Shown: one piece after another, positions 9,001 through 12,000 of the stretch | Layout: every line of letters starts with the position of its first letter | Position numbering within the stretch: position 1 is the stretch's first letter | Source of the DNA: Escherichia coli | Lineage (GTDB): Bacteria > Pseudomonadota > Gammaproteobacteria > Enterobacterales > Enterobacteriaceae | Length of the DNA: 64,000 nucleotides | Assembly (NCBI RefSeq): GCF_051903065.1 | Contig: NZ_CP178439.1 | Strand: one strand, 5' to 3' | Position numbers: made by a program

Positions 9001-12000
9001 TTCAGGATGACGAAGAACGATTCGGCGCTAGGTGCAACATAGGTGCATCGCACGAGCGCTAGGAACGGCGAAAAAAGGCGGACGTGGCGAAATCGGTAGA
9101 CGCAGCAGACTTTAAAATTGGAGTGCCCGCGGGGAAATCCGCGGAGTAGAACCGCTCAAAGTCGGGGAACGCTAACGGGCAATACCCTAAGCCAATCCCG
9201 AGCCAAGCCCCTTCGGGGGAAGGTGTAGAGACTGGACGGGCGGCGCCTAAAGCCTTCGGGCAATGGCGAAGGGACAGTCCAGACCACGAACGTCATCAGA
9301 CGGCGGCGAAAGTCGAGGTGGTACGAAAATCTGCTTCTCTGTGAGAGTACGGGTTCGAGTCCCGTCGTCCGCACCACAAAGCCAAACATCCCTGCGATGA
9401 TCGACCTCTGGGCGTTTGGTCGTGAGCCCGCCACCCTCGCGCTACGCTTTGCGCAGGCGTCGAAGGCGATCAGGTGCGCCCATCGATTCCGTCGAGCACC
9501 ATCGCTGCGAGTTCATCGCTGGTGTGTGCACCACTATCGAGAACACGGGTTGTGCATGGAAGCCGTTCCCTTGCGGCCAAGCATCGGGCGACATTCGCTA
9601 ATCGCCACTCTCGAATCTCCGCATTTCGATTCGGGTCAGGATGCATGGTCTGGTTCGCGATCCGGTGACGCAATAGGTCCTCGTTGAGCGTCAGAAAGAT
9701 GTGCAGCAGCTGATCGTCGATCCGCCTTACCCCGTCGAGTATCTCAGTCAGATAGTCCGGGTGCACGAGCGTCATTGGGATGATGATGTCCTGCGAGTAA
9801 TTCCTTCGAATCTCCCTGACCGCCGCGATCGTAAGTCCCCTCCACAAGGGGAGATCCTGATAGTCTCCGCTCGCTGGCATGGGGACCGTTTCTTTCACCA
9901 CGAACCCGATTTCCTCGGGGTCAAAGATCAGCGATTTGGAACGCCGATCGCGCAGCCGCTTAGCGAGCGTCGTCTTTCCGGCGCCGAAAGGTCCGTTGAT
10001 CCAGATTATCATTGTCGACGGCCTCTAACCTGAAGGCTCGCAAGAGCGCTCGACGGCCTCGTGCGGAGGCACGATCGGAGTGGTTCCGAAATGCTTCTCA
10101 AGATAGGTGACGCCGAACGTCACGATGTCCTGCGCGTCGAACAGGTAGCACTGAGCAAAGCCCACGACACCTTCTCGATGGCGACCGAGCTTCACGTAAG
10201 CATTTGCTATAGTTTCAACCGCATCCGGCTTTCCTTCGATAGCAAAGCAATCGAGAATGCCGTTTGAATCGTAATCCGATGCCGTTTTCCAGGCGACTTC
10301 ACCGTCTCTTCCAAGCATCGGCATCTCATACGTCACCCACCGTTTGTTGGGGATATCGGCAACCGCCTCGGCGTAGTGCAATGCGGTAACGGAGTTTAGC
10401 GGCGCACCCAACAGCAGGGCCTTCCCGCCAAGGCGAACGAACCGCTCGACGGGCGATCCTTCCCCCAAGGCGTGACCGAGTTCGTGAGGCTCCGTCAGCG
10501 TTTCAGCCAGCGGACCAACCGCGACCATCGATGCATCGGGGTGCGCGCTGCGCCGCGCGCCGGGGGCTTGAACCAGAAATTGATTCAGCAGGCCGAACCC
10601 ACGGTAAGTCCCGGCTGTTGCGGGATCGAACGGCAGCCAGGTACGGCGGGCTTCGTCATCCAGCCGAGCGCCATTCAGAGTCTCCTCGTAGGGTGATCGG
10701 TCCCACGACGCGTATCCCATCACAGTGCCAGTCGGCCCAACCGCGGAGCGTAACGCGGCAACGACCGTCTCCGCTCCTCCTTCGACCGGACCAATCGCTT
10801 TAAGTGAGGCATGCACCATCAAGAGGTCACCGGTTTGGACTCCGAGTTTTTGAAGCGCCTCCGTTATTGCCTTCCGCGTATGCATCGCGATATCTCCTCT
10901 AAACTGCAAAACACTATACGCTGATGAATCCCCTAATGATTTTGGTAAAAATCATTAAGTTAAGGTGGATACACATCTTGTCATATGATCAAATGGTTTC
11001 GCGAAAAATCAATAATCAGACAACAAGATGTGCGAACTCGATATTTTACACGACTCTCTTTACCAATTCTGCCCCGAATTACACTTAAAACGACTCAACA
11101 GCTTAACGTTGGCTTGCCACGCATTACTTGACTGTAAAACTCTCACTCTGGCACTGTTGCAAAGTTAGCGATGAGGCAGCCTTTTGTCTTATTCAAAGGC
11201 CTTACATTTCAAAAACTCTGCTTACCAGGCGCATTTCGCCCAGGGGATCACCATAATAAAATGCTGAGGCCTGGCCTTTGCGTAGTGCACGCATCACCTC
11301 AATACCTTTGATGGTGGCGTAAGCCGTCTTCATGGATTTAAATCCCAGCGTGGCGTTGATTATCCGTTTCAGTTTGCCATGATCGCATTCAATCACGTTG
11401 TTCCGGTACTTAATCTGTCGGTGTTCAACGTCAGACGGGCACCGGCCTTCGCGTTTGAGCAGAGCAAGCGCGCGACCATAGGCGGGCGCTTTATCCGTGT
11501 TGATGAATCGCGGGATCTGCCACTTCTTCACGTTGTTGAGGATTTTACCCAGAAACCGGTATGCAGCTTTGCTGTTACGACGGGAGGAGAGATAAAAATC
11601 GACAGTGCGGCCCCGGCTGTCGACGGCCCGGTACAGATACGCCCAGCGGCCATTGACCTTCACGTAGGTTTCATCCATGTGCCACGGGCAAAGATCGGAA
11701 GGGTTACGCCAGTACCAGCGCAGCCGTTTTTCCATTTCAGGCGCATAACGCTGAACCCAGCGGTAAATCGTGGAGTGATCGACATTCACTCCGCGTTCAG
11801 CCAGCATCTCCTGCAGCTCACGGTAACTGATGCCGTATTTGCAGTACCAGCGTACGGCCCACAGAATGATGTCACGCTGAAAATGCCGGCCTTTGAATGG
11901 GTTCATGTGCAGCTCCATCAGCAAAAGGGGATGATAAGTTTATCACCACCGACTATTTGCAACAGTGCCCAATTTCTTTGAGCACTGGCTTCATGACATT

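What the first reader, a model, noticed from the sequence alone, without database searches (positions are those of the whole stretch)
9078..9376. tRNA-Leu(UAA) gene split by a group I intron inside an IS26-bounded aminoglycoside-resistance module
Between the DUF3883-like gene and tmrB/aac(3)-II lies a complete type II tRNA with anticodon UAA, interrupted after U34 by a 213-nt insert that begins after an exon U, ends in G, has an internal guide sequence (GAGU) able to pair with the exon end, and carries core-like motifs resembling small bacterial tRNA group I introns. Intron-containing tRNAs are characteristic of cyanobacteria and a few proteobacteria, not of enterobacterial plasmids. Standard annotation pipelines are likely to miss it, and it may be a phylogenetic marker for the donor genome of the aac(3)-II/tmrB segment.
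Basis: partly seen in the sequence, partly recalled or inferred. Interest (0 to 1): 0.8.

Follow-up and report, generated by a model that had tools for sequence, protein, structure and literature searches.

The report
Intron-split tRNA-Leu on resistance plasmids
An intact alphaproteobacterial (Paracoccus-type) tRNA-Leu gene, interrupted by a self-splicing group I intron, sits unannotated next to the gentamicin-resistance gene aac(3)-IId on more than a thousand enterobacterial plasmids; it is an ordinary member of a well-known intron family in an unexpected place, and it points to where part of the resistance module came from.

Summary
Window 9078-9112 plus 9326-9376 join into an 86-nt tRNA-Leu(UAA). 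The 213 nt between them (9113-9325) are a complete group I intron at the classical U34/A35 site.

Rfam's generic model scores it below its gathering score (36.8 vs 50 bits). A covariance model built from 46 chromosomal tRNA-Leu introns, window excluded, scores it 137 bits (E 2.5e-32). All helices P1-P9 pair canonically and covary across 50 sequences. The window matches all 95 conserved family columns.

The nearest relatives are chromosomal Paracoccus-type loci: exons 100% identical, intron 93-95%, with differences only in unpaired positions or pair-preserving. Homology begins about 170 nt upstream and stops exactly at the CCA end. A 95-nt 3' remnant of the same gene lies beside tmrB in Rhizobiaceae-like contigs, so the tRNA-tmrB-aac(3) linkage predates plasmid capture.

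The left part of the module (DUF3883, ISCfr1) is Stutzerimonas-like, so the module is a mosaic.

The element is at least 99% identical in 1274 PLSDB plasmids and occurs in 635 of 5426 complete E. coli genomes, never annotated.

Expression and splicing in enterobacteria are untested, and no sigma-70 consensus promoter was found. Verdict: real, a new member of a known kind.

The parts
9078..9112 (+). tRNA-Leu(UAA) 5' exon (acceptor 5' strand, D arm, anticodon stem 5' strand, C32 U33 U34). U34 is the -1 nucleotide of the 5' splice site.
   Evidence: ARAGORN on the joined exons. 100% identical to Paracoccus-type loci L149-L151.
9113..9325 (+). Group I intron, 213 nt, IC3-like, ending in omega-G at 9325. 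Helix coordinates: P1 9109-9114/9119-9124; P2 9127-9133/9138-9144 (GAAA loop); P3 9152-9157/9238-9243; P4 9162-9167/9196-9201; P5 9171-9173/9190-9192; P5a 9177-9179/9185-9187; P6 9202-9203/9223-9224; P6a 9208-9211/9216-9219 (UUCG loop); P7 9230-9234/9275-9279; P8 9244-9247/9265-9268; P8a 9252-9254/9259-9261; P9 9284-9287/9318-9321; P9a 9291-9294/9299-9302; P9b 9304-9307/9312-9315 (GAAA loop).
   Evidence: Helices assigned on the sequence and tested on 47- and 50-sequence alignments: 96.9% of cells paired, 35 of 57 pairs with compensatory change, 0 of 500 shuffles as good. Rfam RF00028 36.8 bits.
9146..9285 (+). Catalytic core, from J2/3 through P3-P8 to P7'.
   Evidence: Covariance model R1, built from 46 chromosomal relatives with the window excluded: 137.1 bits, E 2.5e-32, full-length match 1-140, only hit in the 64 kb.
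9326..9376 (+). tRNA-Leu(UAA) 3' exon (A35 A36 A37 A38, anticodon stem 3' strand, long variable arm, T arm, acceptor 3' strand, A73, encoded CCA at 9374-9376).
   Evidence: Homology to the Paracoccus-type loci ends exactly at 9376.
9120..9124 (+). Internal guide sequence GGAGU. G9121 forms the U.G wobble with U-1 (9112). The UU just upstream (9118-9119) can pair with the first two A of the 3' exon (P10).
   Evidence: The U.G pair is present in 50 of 50 sequences and C-G at -3 in 50 of 50.
8908..9077 (+). Native 5' flank of the tRNA, retained on the plasmid. It contains the conserved block GCTAGGTGCAAnATAGGTGCA (9028-9048), a candidate native promoter or regulatory site.
   Evidence: 86-90% identity to L149 and L150 over window 8911-9376, which includes this flank. 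Invariant block in alignment A4. No sigma-70 consensus match.
8906..8932 (+). Tail of an intron-less tRNA-Leu(UAA) 5' fragment (CAGCGGACTTAAAAAGTCT followed by a T-run). The Paracoccus-like homology of the window begins inside it.
   Evidence: Local alignments to the spliced tRNA: L151 carries 39 nt at 95% identity.
9470..10012 (-). tmrB-like AAA ATPase gene, convergent with the tRNA.
   Evidence: PGAP annotation of identical plasmids. In L013-L015 its homologue is followed by a remnant of the same tRNA.
10025..10885 (-). aac(3)-IId aminoglycoside acetyltransferase gene.
7368..8495 (-). DUF3883 (ScoMcrA_N/NOV_C) gene, 3' end cut by IS26. Stutzerimonas-like origin, not part of the tRNA donor fragment.
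6627..7349 (-). Left IS26 tnpA. The IS26 end abuts the module at about 7394/7395.
11202..11924 (-). Right IS26 tnpA. The IS26 end lies at about 11150, preceded by an IS10 remnant with RNA-OUT at 10966-11035.

Best explanation
Window 9078-9376 is a structurally intact tRNA-Leu(UAA) gene of alphaproteobacterial (Paracoccus-type) origin. A 213-nt group I (IC3-type) self-splicing intron interrupts it between U34 and A35.

Expected mechanism (inferred from the family, not shown here): the gene is transcribed as a pre-tRNA and the intron folds into the P1-P9 ribozyme. An exogenous guanosine attacks the phosphate after U34, which is held in a U.G wobble in P1 by the guide GGAGU. The freed 3'-OH of U34 then attacks after omega-G 9325, joining the exons into an 86-nt tRNA with encoded CCA that reads UUA/UUG.

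On the plasmid it is most likely a passenger. It was the chromosomal neighbour of tmrB-aac(3)-II in the last environmental host and was carried along when that junction was captured next to ISCfr1/DUF3883 DNA and later boxed in by IS26. It has since spread clonally with aac(3)-IId through Enterobacterales, Acinetobacter, Aeromonas, Pseudomonas and others.
For: Shown:
- The exons join to tRNA-Leu(taa) with a full cloverleaf, U8, G18G19, U33, TTC loop, A58, A73 and CCA.
- Rfam group I hit at E 7.9e-8.
- Family-specific covariance model without the window: 137.1 bits, E 2.5e-32.
- Every helix P1-P9 is canonical in the window and covaries across 50 sequences: 96.9% of cells paired against 29-44% when the partner is slid; 35 of 57 pairs show compensatory change.
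- The window agrees with all 95 columns that are at least 95% conserved among 46 relatives.
- Against three Paracoccus-type chromosomal loci the exons are identical and the intron is 93-95% identical. All 12-15 differences lie in unpaired positions (hairpin loops or the P8 internal loop) or keep the pair, for example 9293 U>C with 9300 A>G in P9a.
- L149 is P. kondratievae by 100% MetRS identity.
- The linkage to tmrB is ancestral: L013-L015 carry a homologous 95-nt 3' remnant beside tmrB-aac(3).
- Spread: 1280 PLSDB plasmids match, 1274 of them at 99% identity or more, and 635 of 5426 complete E. coli genomes carry it.

Inferred: self-splicing and passenger status.
Against: - No sigma-70 consensus promoter or intrinsic terminator was found in 8700-9700, so transcription in E. 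coli is unproven.
- Rfam's curated gathering score is not reached (36.8 against 50 bits). However, five of ten related loci tested scored 35-56 bits and the other five gave no match at E <= 0.001.
- Thermodynamic folding alone is not better than shuffles (z = -1.0).
- The exact donor was not found; the best match is 92% over 350 nt.
- The closest chromosomal aac(3)/tmrB homologues are Rhizobiaceae-like rather than Paracoccus-like.
Confidence: 0.87

Rival explanations
1. The gene is expressed, spliced and aminoacylated in enterobacterial hosts and is kept because an extra tRNA-Leu(UAA) helps translation of UUA/UUG-rich (AT-rich, horizontally acquired) genes. On this view it is a functional accessory tRNA rather than a passenger.
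For: The sequence is fully intact after spreading to more than 1000 plasmids. The D-loop architecture, A73 and encoded CCA resemble E. coli tRNA-Leu (plus established LeuRS identity rules). Group I introns such as T4 td and Tetrahymena splice in E. coli (established knowledge).
Against: The spread is recent and clonal (at least 99% identity), so intactness says nothing about selection in the new hosts. No sigma-70-like promoter was found. E. coli already has leuZ. Some aac(3)-II/tmrB variants have an IS directly after tmrB and lack the tRNA, yet they circulate.
Confidence: 0.15
2. The intron-bearing tRNA-Leu is the attachment site of an integrative element, or the replacement copy that such an element carries. 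tmrB-aac(3)-II would then be cargo at the element's end, and the plasmid captured an attL-type junction.
For: Homology to three Paracoccus-type loci stops exactly at the CCA end, and each locus has a different downstream flank. A 95-nt 3' remnant (intron P9 plus 3' exon) travels with tmrB-aac(3) in a Shinella/Sinorhizobium-like replicon. An intron-less tRNA-Leu 5' fragment lies about 165 nt upstream in all Paracoccus-type loci, and the window's homology starts inside it.
Against: No integrase gene and no second direct repeat are seen in any flank held. No viral or proviral contig carries the junction. In Sinorhizobium-like chromosomes aac(3)-tmrB sits in a syntenic locus without any tRNA.
Confidence: 0.25
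3. The gene is a dead relic: the sequence looks like an intron-containing tRNA but can no longer splice or function, in any host.
For: Below the Rfam gathering score. No recognised promoter. A clearly decayed copy of the same gene exists in L013-L015.
Against: There are no departures from the 95 conserved family columns, every pair is canonical, and U.G and omega-G are present. The substitutions relative to Paracoccus all preserve structure. The L014 remnant, by contrast, has changes that break the anticodon stem and A58.
Confidence: 0.06
4. The match is a chance resemblance in GC-rich intergenic DNA.
For: None beyond the sub-threshold Rfam score.
Against: E 2.5e-32 with an independent model. 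Exon identity of 100% to chromosomal tRNA genes.
Confidence: 0.01

Closest known systems
Chromosomal tRNA-Leu(UAA) group I introns of Paracoccus (L149 = P. kondratievae; L150, L151) and other Alphaproteobacteria (Roseomonas sp. KE0001 L084, Acetobacteraceae AT-5844 L068, Sphingomonas laterariae L108)
   Same: Same tRNA, same insertion site (U34/A35), same helices and the same core sequence. With the Paracoccus type the exons are 100% identical, the intron 93-95%, and about 170 nt of 5' flank are shared.
   Different: The location differs: here the gene lies inside an IS26-bounded resistance module on conjugative plasmids of Gammaproteobacteria. The downstream flank is tmrB-aac(3)-IId instead of housekeeping or variable chromosomal genes.
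Cyanobacterial/plastid tRNA-Leu(UAA) intron (Anabaena PCC 7120 type; 'Leu.3Ug' in Williams 2020, 10.1101/2020.01.27.920355)
   Same: The classical splice context CUU/...g/AAAA, U-1/omega-G, IC3 subgroup. From memory, the shared core strings are AAUCCnGAGCCAAGCC and GAAGGUGnAGAGACUnGACGGG.
   Different: The window copy is 213 nt long and GC-rich. Its P7 closing pair is G-C, and A-U in most proteobacterial relatives. Differences from the cyanobacterial intron itself (length, AU-rich peripheral extensions, P7 closing pair) rest on my recollection of the Anabaena sequence, because no cyanobacterial sequence was fetched here.
Azoarcus tRNA-Ile(CAU) intron (structurally solved IC3 ribozyme; PMC13168695)
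   Same: A small (about 200 nt) bacterial tRNA IC3 intron with a P2 GAAA tetraloop, P9 GAAA tetraloop and the core GAAGGUGUAGAGACUAGACGG. tRNA(CAU) introns were retrieved by the same 21-nt motif.
   Different: It occupies a different tRNA and a different insertion position in the anticodon loop. No experimental data exist for the window intron.
The 'aacC2-tmrB region' of pCTX-M3-type plasmids (ISCfr1-orf-tmrB-aac(3)-II, IS26-flanked)
   Same: This is the same DNA: 99.9% identical over 3.5 kb to pCTX-M3.
   Different: The two annotated records examined (RefSeq/PGAP for pYDC107_184; the PLSDB gene table for pCTX-M3, which omits RNA genes) and the papers found in the searchable library list only protein genes. 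None mentions a tRNA or a group I intron.

Membership tests
Group I intron (Rfam RF00028; bacterial tRNA IC3 type) | U at -1 of the 5' splice site, in a U.G wobble within P1 formed with an internal guide sequence | tested here: met
   U9112 pairs with G9121. The U.G pair is present in 50 of 50 aligned sequences.
Group I intron (Rfam RF00028; bacterial tRNA IC3 type) | Terminal guanosine (omega-G) at the 3' splice site | tested here: met
   G9325, followed by exon AAAAUC. Invariant in all relatives.
Group I intron (Rfam RF00028; bacterial tRNA IC3 type) | Conserved core helices P3-P8, including the P3/P7 pseudoknot, supported by covariation | tested here: met
   P3, P4, P5, P6, P7 and P8 are 100% paired. 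Compensatory changes occur in P3 (4 of 6 pairs), P7 (1 of 5) and P8 (3 of 4). 0 of 500 shuffles reach the observed score, and slid controls pair 29-44%. RNAalifold recovers P3, P4, P5, P6a and P8 independently.
Group I intron (Rfam RF00028; bacterial tRNA IC3 type) | Conserved single-stranded core nucleotides (J3/4, J4/5, J6/7, J8/7) | tested here: met
   The window agrees with all 95 columns conserved at 95% or more in 46 relatives.
Group I intron (Rfam RF00028; bacterial tRNA IC3 type) | Score at or above Rfam's gathering score | tested here: not met
   36.8 bits against a gathering score of 50 (E 7.9e-8 locally). Five of ten related loci tested scored 35-56 bits and the other five gave no match at E <= 0.001. 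Per Williams 2020, none of the model's 12 seed sequences was bacterial. The family-specific model gives 137 bits. This is a threshold of one model, not a biological criterion.
Group I intron (Rfam RF00028; bacterial tRNA IC3 type) | Guanosine-dependent self-splicing | not testable with these tools
   Needs in vitro transcription and a splicing assay.
Group I intron subgroup IC3 | Subgroup-specific peripheral architecture (Michel-Westhof/GISSD criteria) | not tested
   No subgroup models are available. Assigned by homology to the 'Leu.3Ug' class, which GISSD marks IC3 according to Williams 2020.
tRNA-Leu (type II tRNA) | Cloverleaf with long variable arm and anticodon UAA after exon joining | tested here: met
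   ARAGORN: tRNA-Leu(taa), 86 nt.
tRNA-Leu (type II tRNA) | Universal tRNA nucleotides (U8, G18G19, U33, T54-psi55-C56, A58), discriminator A73, 3' CCA | tested here: met
   Read from the ARAGORN cloverleaf. The exons are 100% identical to the tRNA-Leu(UAA) exons at three Paracoccus-type chromosomal loci.
tRNA-Leu (type II tRNA) | Aminoacylation by LeuRS and use in translation | not testable with these tools
   -
IS26-bounded resistance module (pseudo-compound transposon) | IS26 copies at both ends of the segment carrying the resistance gene | tested here: met
   IS26 tnpA at 6627-7349 and 11202-11924. IS26 terminal sequences lie at 7350-7394 and from 11150.
tRNA-targeting integrative element (att junction) | Tyrosine or serine integrase gene, plus a direct repeat of the tRNA 3' segment bounding the inserted DNA | tested here: inconclusive
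   Partial tRNA copies exist. No integrase and no second repeat are seen in the flanks held, and those flanks are short.

The most novel reading that the evidence does not exclude
A catalytically competent group I ribozyme is transcribed and splices in clinical Enterobacterales, about 12% of complete E. coli genomes, yielding a foreign tRNA-Leu(UAA). In addition, the intron-bearing tRNA is the att site, or the replacement tRNA, of an alphaproteobacterial integrative element that delivered aac(3)-II/tmrB. That would make the tRNA both the vehicle's landing pad and a precise tracer of the gene's route (Rhizobiaceae/Paracoccus -> Pseudomonadaceae-like intermediate -> Enterobacterales).
Probability: 0.15. 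Interest if true: 0.75.

Novelty: new member of a known kind. Interest (0 to 1): 0.55.

Why it matters
1. Annotation. A complete RNA gene with a ribozyme inside it is present in about one in eight complete E. coli genomes and in roughly 1300 sequenced plasmids. It is invisible to PGAP, default ARAGORN and Rfam at gathering score.

2. Origin tracing. The origin of aac(3)-II is unsettled as far as I know. The tRNA and its 5' flank give a nucleotide-level anchor to Paracoccus-type chromosomes. The remnant in Rhizobiaceae-like contigs shows that tRNA-tmrB-aac(3) is an old unit. The DUF3883/ISCfr1 part points to a Pseudomonadaceae-like intermediate.

3. Intron biology. A recent survey concluded that horizontal transfer of tRNA group I introns is infrequent because they lack homing endonucleases (PMC13011429). 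Here one has crossed classes and spread worldwide by hitch-hiking on a resistance module.

4. Practical use. The intron is a ready-made natural test of whether a foreign group I intron and tRNA are processed in clinical hosts, and a compact marker for this module in metagenomes.

Tried and rejected
- Rfam at gathering score found no intron or tRNA.
- ARAGORN in default mode found nothing. With -i on the unspliced DNA it mis-parses the gene as tRNA-Stop(tta) with a 221-nt intron, though the gene boundaries are right.
- Thermodynamic folding versus shuffles was uninformative (z = -1.0).
- Searching for the tRNA next to tmrB in closer TmrB homologues failed. P0004, P0005 and P0021 have an IS right after tmrB. 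P0006, P0008, P0011 and P0015 sit in Sinorhizobium-like or other contexts without the tRNA.
- The plasmid collection holds no closer Paracoccus copy.
- The viral collection has no copy.
- Literature searches linking group I intron or tRNA-Leu with IS26, tmrB, aacC2 or resistance plasmids found nothing relevant. Williams' 2020 survey of 80,413 genomes probably counted this element among its 3453 'classical' introns, but its table is an image and neither plasmids nor enterobacteria are mentioned.
- The alternative P7 register CUGGAC/GUCCAG was rejected because it is broken in most relatives, whereas GACUN/N'AGUC covaries.
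Full report
OBSERVATION

- Window 9078-9112 reads GCGGACGUGGCGAAAUCGGUAGACGCAGCAGACUU.
- Window 9326-9376 reads AAAAUCUGCUUCUCUGUGAGAGUACGGGUUCGAGUCCCGUCGUCCGCACCA.
- Joined, ARAGORN calls the two an 86-nt tRNA-Leu(UAA). It has a 7-bp acceptor stem, a 3-bp D stem, a long variable arm, a TTCGAGT T-loop, discriminator A73 and an encoded CCA.
- The 213 nt between them begin with U after exon U34 and end in G.

Default ARAGORN finds no tRNA in the whole window. Rfam at gathering score finds neither a tRNA nor an intron. 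At an E-value threshold, Rfam's Intron_gpI model matches 9103-9295 with 36.8 bits, E 7.9e-8 for the 551 nt searched, against a gathering score of 50.

IS IT REALLY A GROUP I INTRON?

I gathered relatives with one scan of species-representative genomes, using a 21-nt core motif (GAAGGTGTAGAGACTNGACGG).
- ARAGORN with intron detection found a split tRNA in 112 of the 120 loci.
- Sixty of these are tRNA-Leu(UAA) genes split at the same position (...ACUU | intron ...G | AAAAUC...). They come from Alpha- and Betaproteobacteria, Acidobacteria, Chloroflexi, Eremiobacterota and Bacteroidota.

I assigned helices P1-P9 on the window sequence and projected them onto alignments.

On a 47-sequence MAFFT alignment, every pair in the window is canonical, and P2, P3, P5, P6a, P7, P8, P8a, P9, P9a and P9b all show compensatory changes.

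On a 50-sequence alignment that includes the three closest loci:
- 96.9% of 2818 cells form standard pairs, against 83.2% in column shuffles and 29-44% when the 3' partner is slid by 1-3 columns.
- 35 of 57 pairs show changes on both sides.
- 0 of 500 shuffles reach any of the five measures.
- The U.G wobble at the 5' splice site is present in 50 of 50 sequences.
- The P7 register GACUN/N'AGUC covaries (A-U 36, G-C 11, U-A 3).

RNAalifold on the relatives alone recovers P3, P4, P5, P6a and P8. The window agrees with all 95 columns that are at least 95% conserved among the 46 relatives.

I then built a covariance model of the 140-nt core from those 46 chromosomal introns, without the window. 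It finds window 9146-9285 (+) at 137.1 bits, E 2.5e-32, end to end, and nothing else in the 64 kb.

The sub-threshold Rfam score is typical of this lineage. Of ten related loci tested, five scored 35-56 bits and five gave no match at E <= 0.001. Williams (bioRxiv 10.1101/2020.01.27.920355) notes that none of that model's 12 seed sequences was bacterial.

Conclusion: this is an intact member of the classical 'Leu.3Ug' tRNA intron class.

WHERE DOES IT COME FROM?

The tRNA and its 5' flank are Paracoccus-type. A metagenome scan with the intron-end plus 3'-exon pattern returned only three contigs, none of them plasmid-like.
- They match window 8911-9376 at 90% (L149), 8911-9378 at 86% (L150) and 9027-9376 at 92% (L151, a 223-kb contig).
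- L149 encodes a MetRS 100% identical to that of Paracoccus kondratievae, followed by a TonB-dependent receptor and an arginase, and then the tRNA.
- In all three loci the exons are 100% identical to the window and the intron is 93-95% identical.
- All 12-15 differences fall in unpaired positions: the P1, P5a, P6a, P8a and P9a hairpin loops and the internal loop of P8. The rest keep the pair: 9293 U>C with 9300 A>G in P9a; C-G>U.G in P2; G-C>G.U in P5a; U-A>U.G in P5; G.U>G-C in P9b. That is the signature of purifying selection on the RNA structure.
- Homology starts about 170 nt upstream of the tRNA and ends exactly at the CCA (9376). Beyond that point, each of the four sequences is different.

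Among the named genomes from the truncated genome scan, the next closest are Roseomonas sp. KE0001 (87%), Acetobacteraceae bacterium AT-5844 (86%) and Sphingomonas laterariae (83%).

The tRNA-tmrB linkage is older than the plasmid.
- The closest chromosomal homologues of the aac(3)-tmrB pair (80-86% nt) lie in Sinorhizobium/Ensifer-like contigs, syntenic with S. meliloti and without a tRNA.
- Three contigs (L013-L015) carry, directly beside tmrB and in the same orientation as in the window, a homologue of window 9282-9376. That stretch is the last 44 nt of the intron (P9) plus the whole 3' exon. It has two inactivating changes, one in the anticodon stem and one at A58, and nothing of the 5' exon or core.
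- The backbone of L013 is 88% identical to Shinella plasmids and 85% to S. meliloti megaplasmids.
- So the unit tRNA(3' part)-tmrB-aac(3) existed in Alphaproteobacteria and moved between families before any enterobacterial plasmid acquired it.

The left part of the module has a different origin.
- In pCTX-M3 the order is ISCfr1-DUF3883-orf-orf-tRNA-tmrB-aac(3)-IId-IS26.
- ISCfr1 plus DUF3883 is colinear with, and 89.6% identical to, a Stutzerimonas kunmingensis contig. Homology ends at the DUF3883 start codon, window about 8494-8514.
- The IS26-bounded segment is therefore a mosaic. The tRNA marks the Paracoccus-type junction, not the whole segment.

DISTRIBUTION AND ANNOTATION

Window 9050-9400 matches 1280 PLSDB plasmids, 1274 of them at 99% identity or more. 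The hosts are Escherichia 493, Klebsiella 365, Salmonella 117, Acinetobacter 79, Enterobacter 50, Shigella 48, Citrobacter 47, then Aeromonas, Raoultella, Pseudomonas and others.

It is also present in 635 of 5426 complete E. coli genomes, at 588 plasmid and 82 chromosomal places. In the 30 records listed, sampled across the ranking, PGAP annotates nothing under the match.

Some aac(3)-II/tmrB variants have an IS3- or IS91-family element immediately after tmrB and lack the tRNA.

HOW IT MOST LIKELY WORKS

Shown: the gene has everything the family requires.

Inferred from the established mechanism of group I introns:
1. The pre-tRNA folds.
2. An exogenous guanosine bound in P7 attacks after U34 in P1.
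3. Omega-G 9325 replaces it in the binding site.
4. The 5' exon attacks the 3' splice site, aligned by a 2-bp P10 between UU 9118-9119 and the first two A of the 3' exon.
5. RNase P and 3' trimming then give a mature tRNA with its encoded CCA.

Expression in enterobacteria is open.
- The simple scan finds no sigma-70 consensus promoter or terminator in 8700-9700.
- A block GCTAGGTGCAAnATAGGTGCA, 30-50 nt upstream, is invariant between the window and the Paracoccus-type loci. It may be the native promoter or a regulator site.
- The tRNA is convergent with tmrB/aac(3), so it cannot drive them.
- E. coli has its own tRNA-Leu(UAA), and the spread is clonal.
- I therefore regard the gene as a passenger, with about 15% for a selected function.

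AN UNEXPLAINED LAYER

About 165 nt upstream of the intron-bearing gene, the Paracoccus-type loci carry a 5' fragment of an intron-less tRNA-Leu(UAA): the 5' exon joined directly to AAAA, at 95% identity over 39 nt in L151.

The window keeps only the tail of this fragment (8906-8932), and its Paracoccus-like homology begins there.

Three things together look like scars of site-specific integration at this tRNA: this fragment, the sharp homology break at the CCA end, and the 95-nt remnant that travels with tmrB. The intron-bearing copy may even be carried by an integrative element. No integrase or second repeat is present in the short flanks available, and no viral contig carries the junction. 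This remains a hypothesis (about 25%).

COMPARISON WITH WHAT IS KNOWN, AND NOVELTY

tRNA-Leu(UAA) introns at U34/A35 are the archetypal bacterial group I introns.
- Large surveys list thousands of tRNA group I introns, including in Pseudomonadota (Williams 2020; PMC13011429).
- The element is therefore a new member of a known kind, not a new kind.

What appears undescribed is its presence in the aac(3)-IId module of enterobacterial MDR plasmids, together with the Paracoccus link. This claim is limited to the searchable open-access library and the two annotated records examined (RefSeq/PGAP for pYDC107_184; the PLSDB table for pCTX-M3, which omits RNA genes).
- No paper combined group I intron or tRNA-Leu with IS26, tmrB, aacC2 or ISCfr1.
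- Williams' automated survey very likely counted it silently.
[quoted passage not shown] This case shows a different and very efficient route: hitch-hiking.

SCORES

Interest is 0.55. This is a solid and somewhat surprising annotation gap with real value for tracing aac(3)-II, but the biology of the element itself is conventional and its activity in the new hosts is untested.

Noticed in passing
window 8906-8932; L151 6532-6569; L149 ~10171-10220; L150 ~1800-1850: A 5' fragment of an intron-less tRNA-Leu(UAA) (5' exon fused directly to AAAA, then a T-run) lies about 165 nt upstream of the intron-containing gene in the Paracoccus-type loci. The window keeps only its tail, and the Paracoccus-like homology starts inside it. 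It may be an integration or duplication scar.
   Followed up: partly
L013 5770-5874, L014 910-1009, L015 ~730-828 (minus strand of those loci): A 95-nt remnant (last 44 nt of the intron plus the 3' exon, with changes in the anticodon stem and at A58) sits directly beside tmrB-aac(3) homologues in Shinella/Sinorhizobium-like contigs. The 5' exon and catalytic core are replaced by unrelated DNA.
   Followed up: partly
window 7368-8495 and pCTX-M3 locus L141 3633-6417: The DUF3883 (ScoMcrA_N + NOV_C) gene and the adjacent ISCfr1 are colinear with, and 89.6% identical to, a Stutzerimonas kunmingensis contig. There the pair follows a 1729-aa DEAD/UvrD helicase, a defence-like gene pair. The 'aacC2-tmrB region' is therefore a mosaic of Pseudomonadaceae-like and alphaproteobacterial DNA.
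   Followed up: partly
window 10966-11035 (-): A full-length RNA-OUT antisense RNA of IS10 (RF00240, 98.8 bits) sits in the IS10 remnant between aac(3)-IId and the right-hand IS26.
   Followed up: no
window 30959-31034 (+) and 63310-63382 (+): Two matches to the attI1/AAC_AAD_leader motif (RF02912, 74.3 and 64.2 bits), which mark the starts of two class 1 integron cassette arrays in the window.
   Followed up: no
window 9028-9048: A tandem motif, TAGGTGCA-n3-TAGGTGCA, lies 30-50 nt upstream of the tRNA. It is invariant between the window and three Paracoccus-type loci although the surrounding flank diverges. It is a candidate native promoter or regulator site and does not resemble the E. coli sigma-70 consensus.
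   Followed up: partly
L094 (contig CAMCBU010000004.1, 'MAG: Klebsiella pneumoniae', 145 kb), around 533-553: A different group-I-intron-split tRNA(CAU), with a 198-nt intron, in a contig binned as K. pneumoniae. I did not check whether this is a real enterobacterial locus or a binning error.
   Followed up: no
loci L016-L135 (genome-contig scan): The same 21-nt core motif occurs in introns splitting tRNA-Arg(CCU/UCU), tRNA(CAU), Lys(UUU), Thr(UGU), Leu(CAA), Asn, Ser, Glu and Tyr genes across many phyla. ARAGORN -i often mislabels the isotype or anticodon of these split genes; for example it calls Leu(UAA) genes 'Phe(gaa)' or 'Stop(tta)'.
   Followed up: partly
window 8546-8773 (-) and 8797-8988 (+): Two small ORFs that PGAP annotates as hypothetical proteins (WP_000248278.1, WP_000951934.1) lie in a stretch of about 390 nt (8515-8907) with lower GC (about 50-55%).
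   Followed up: partly
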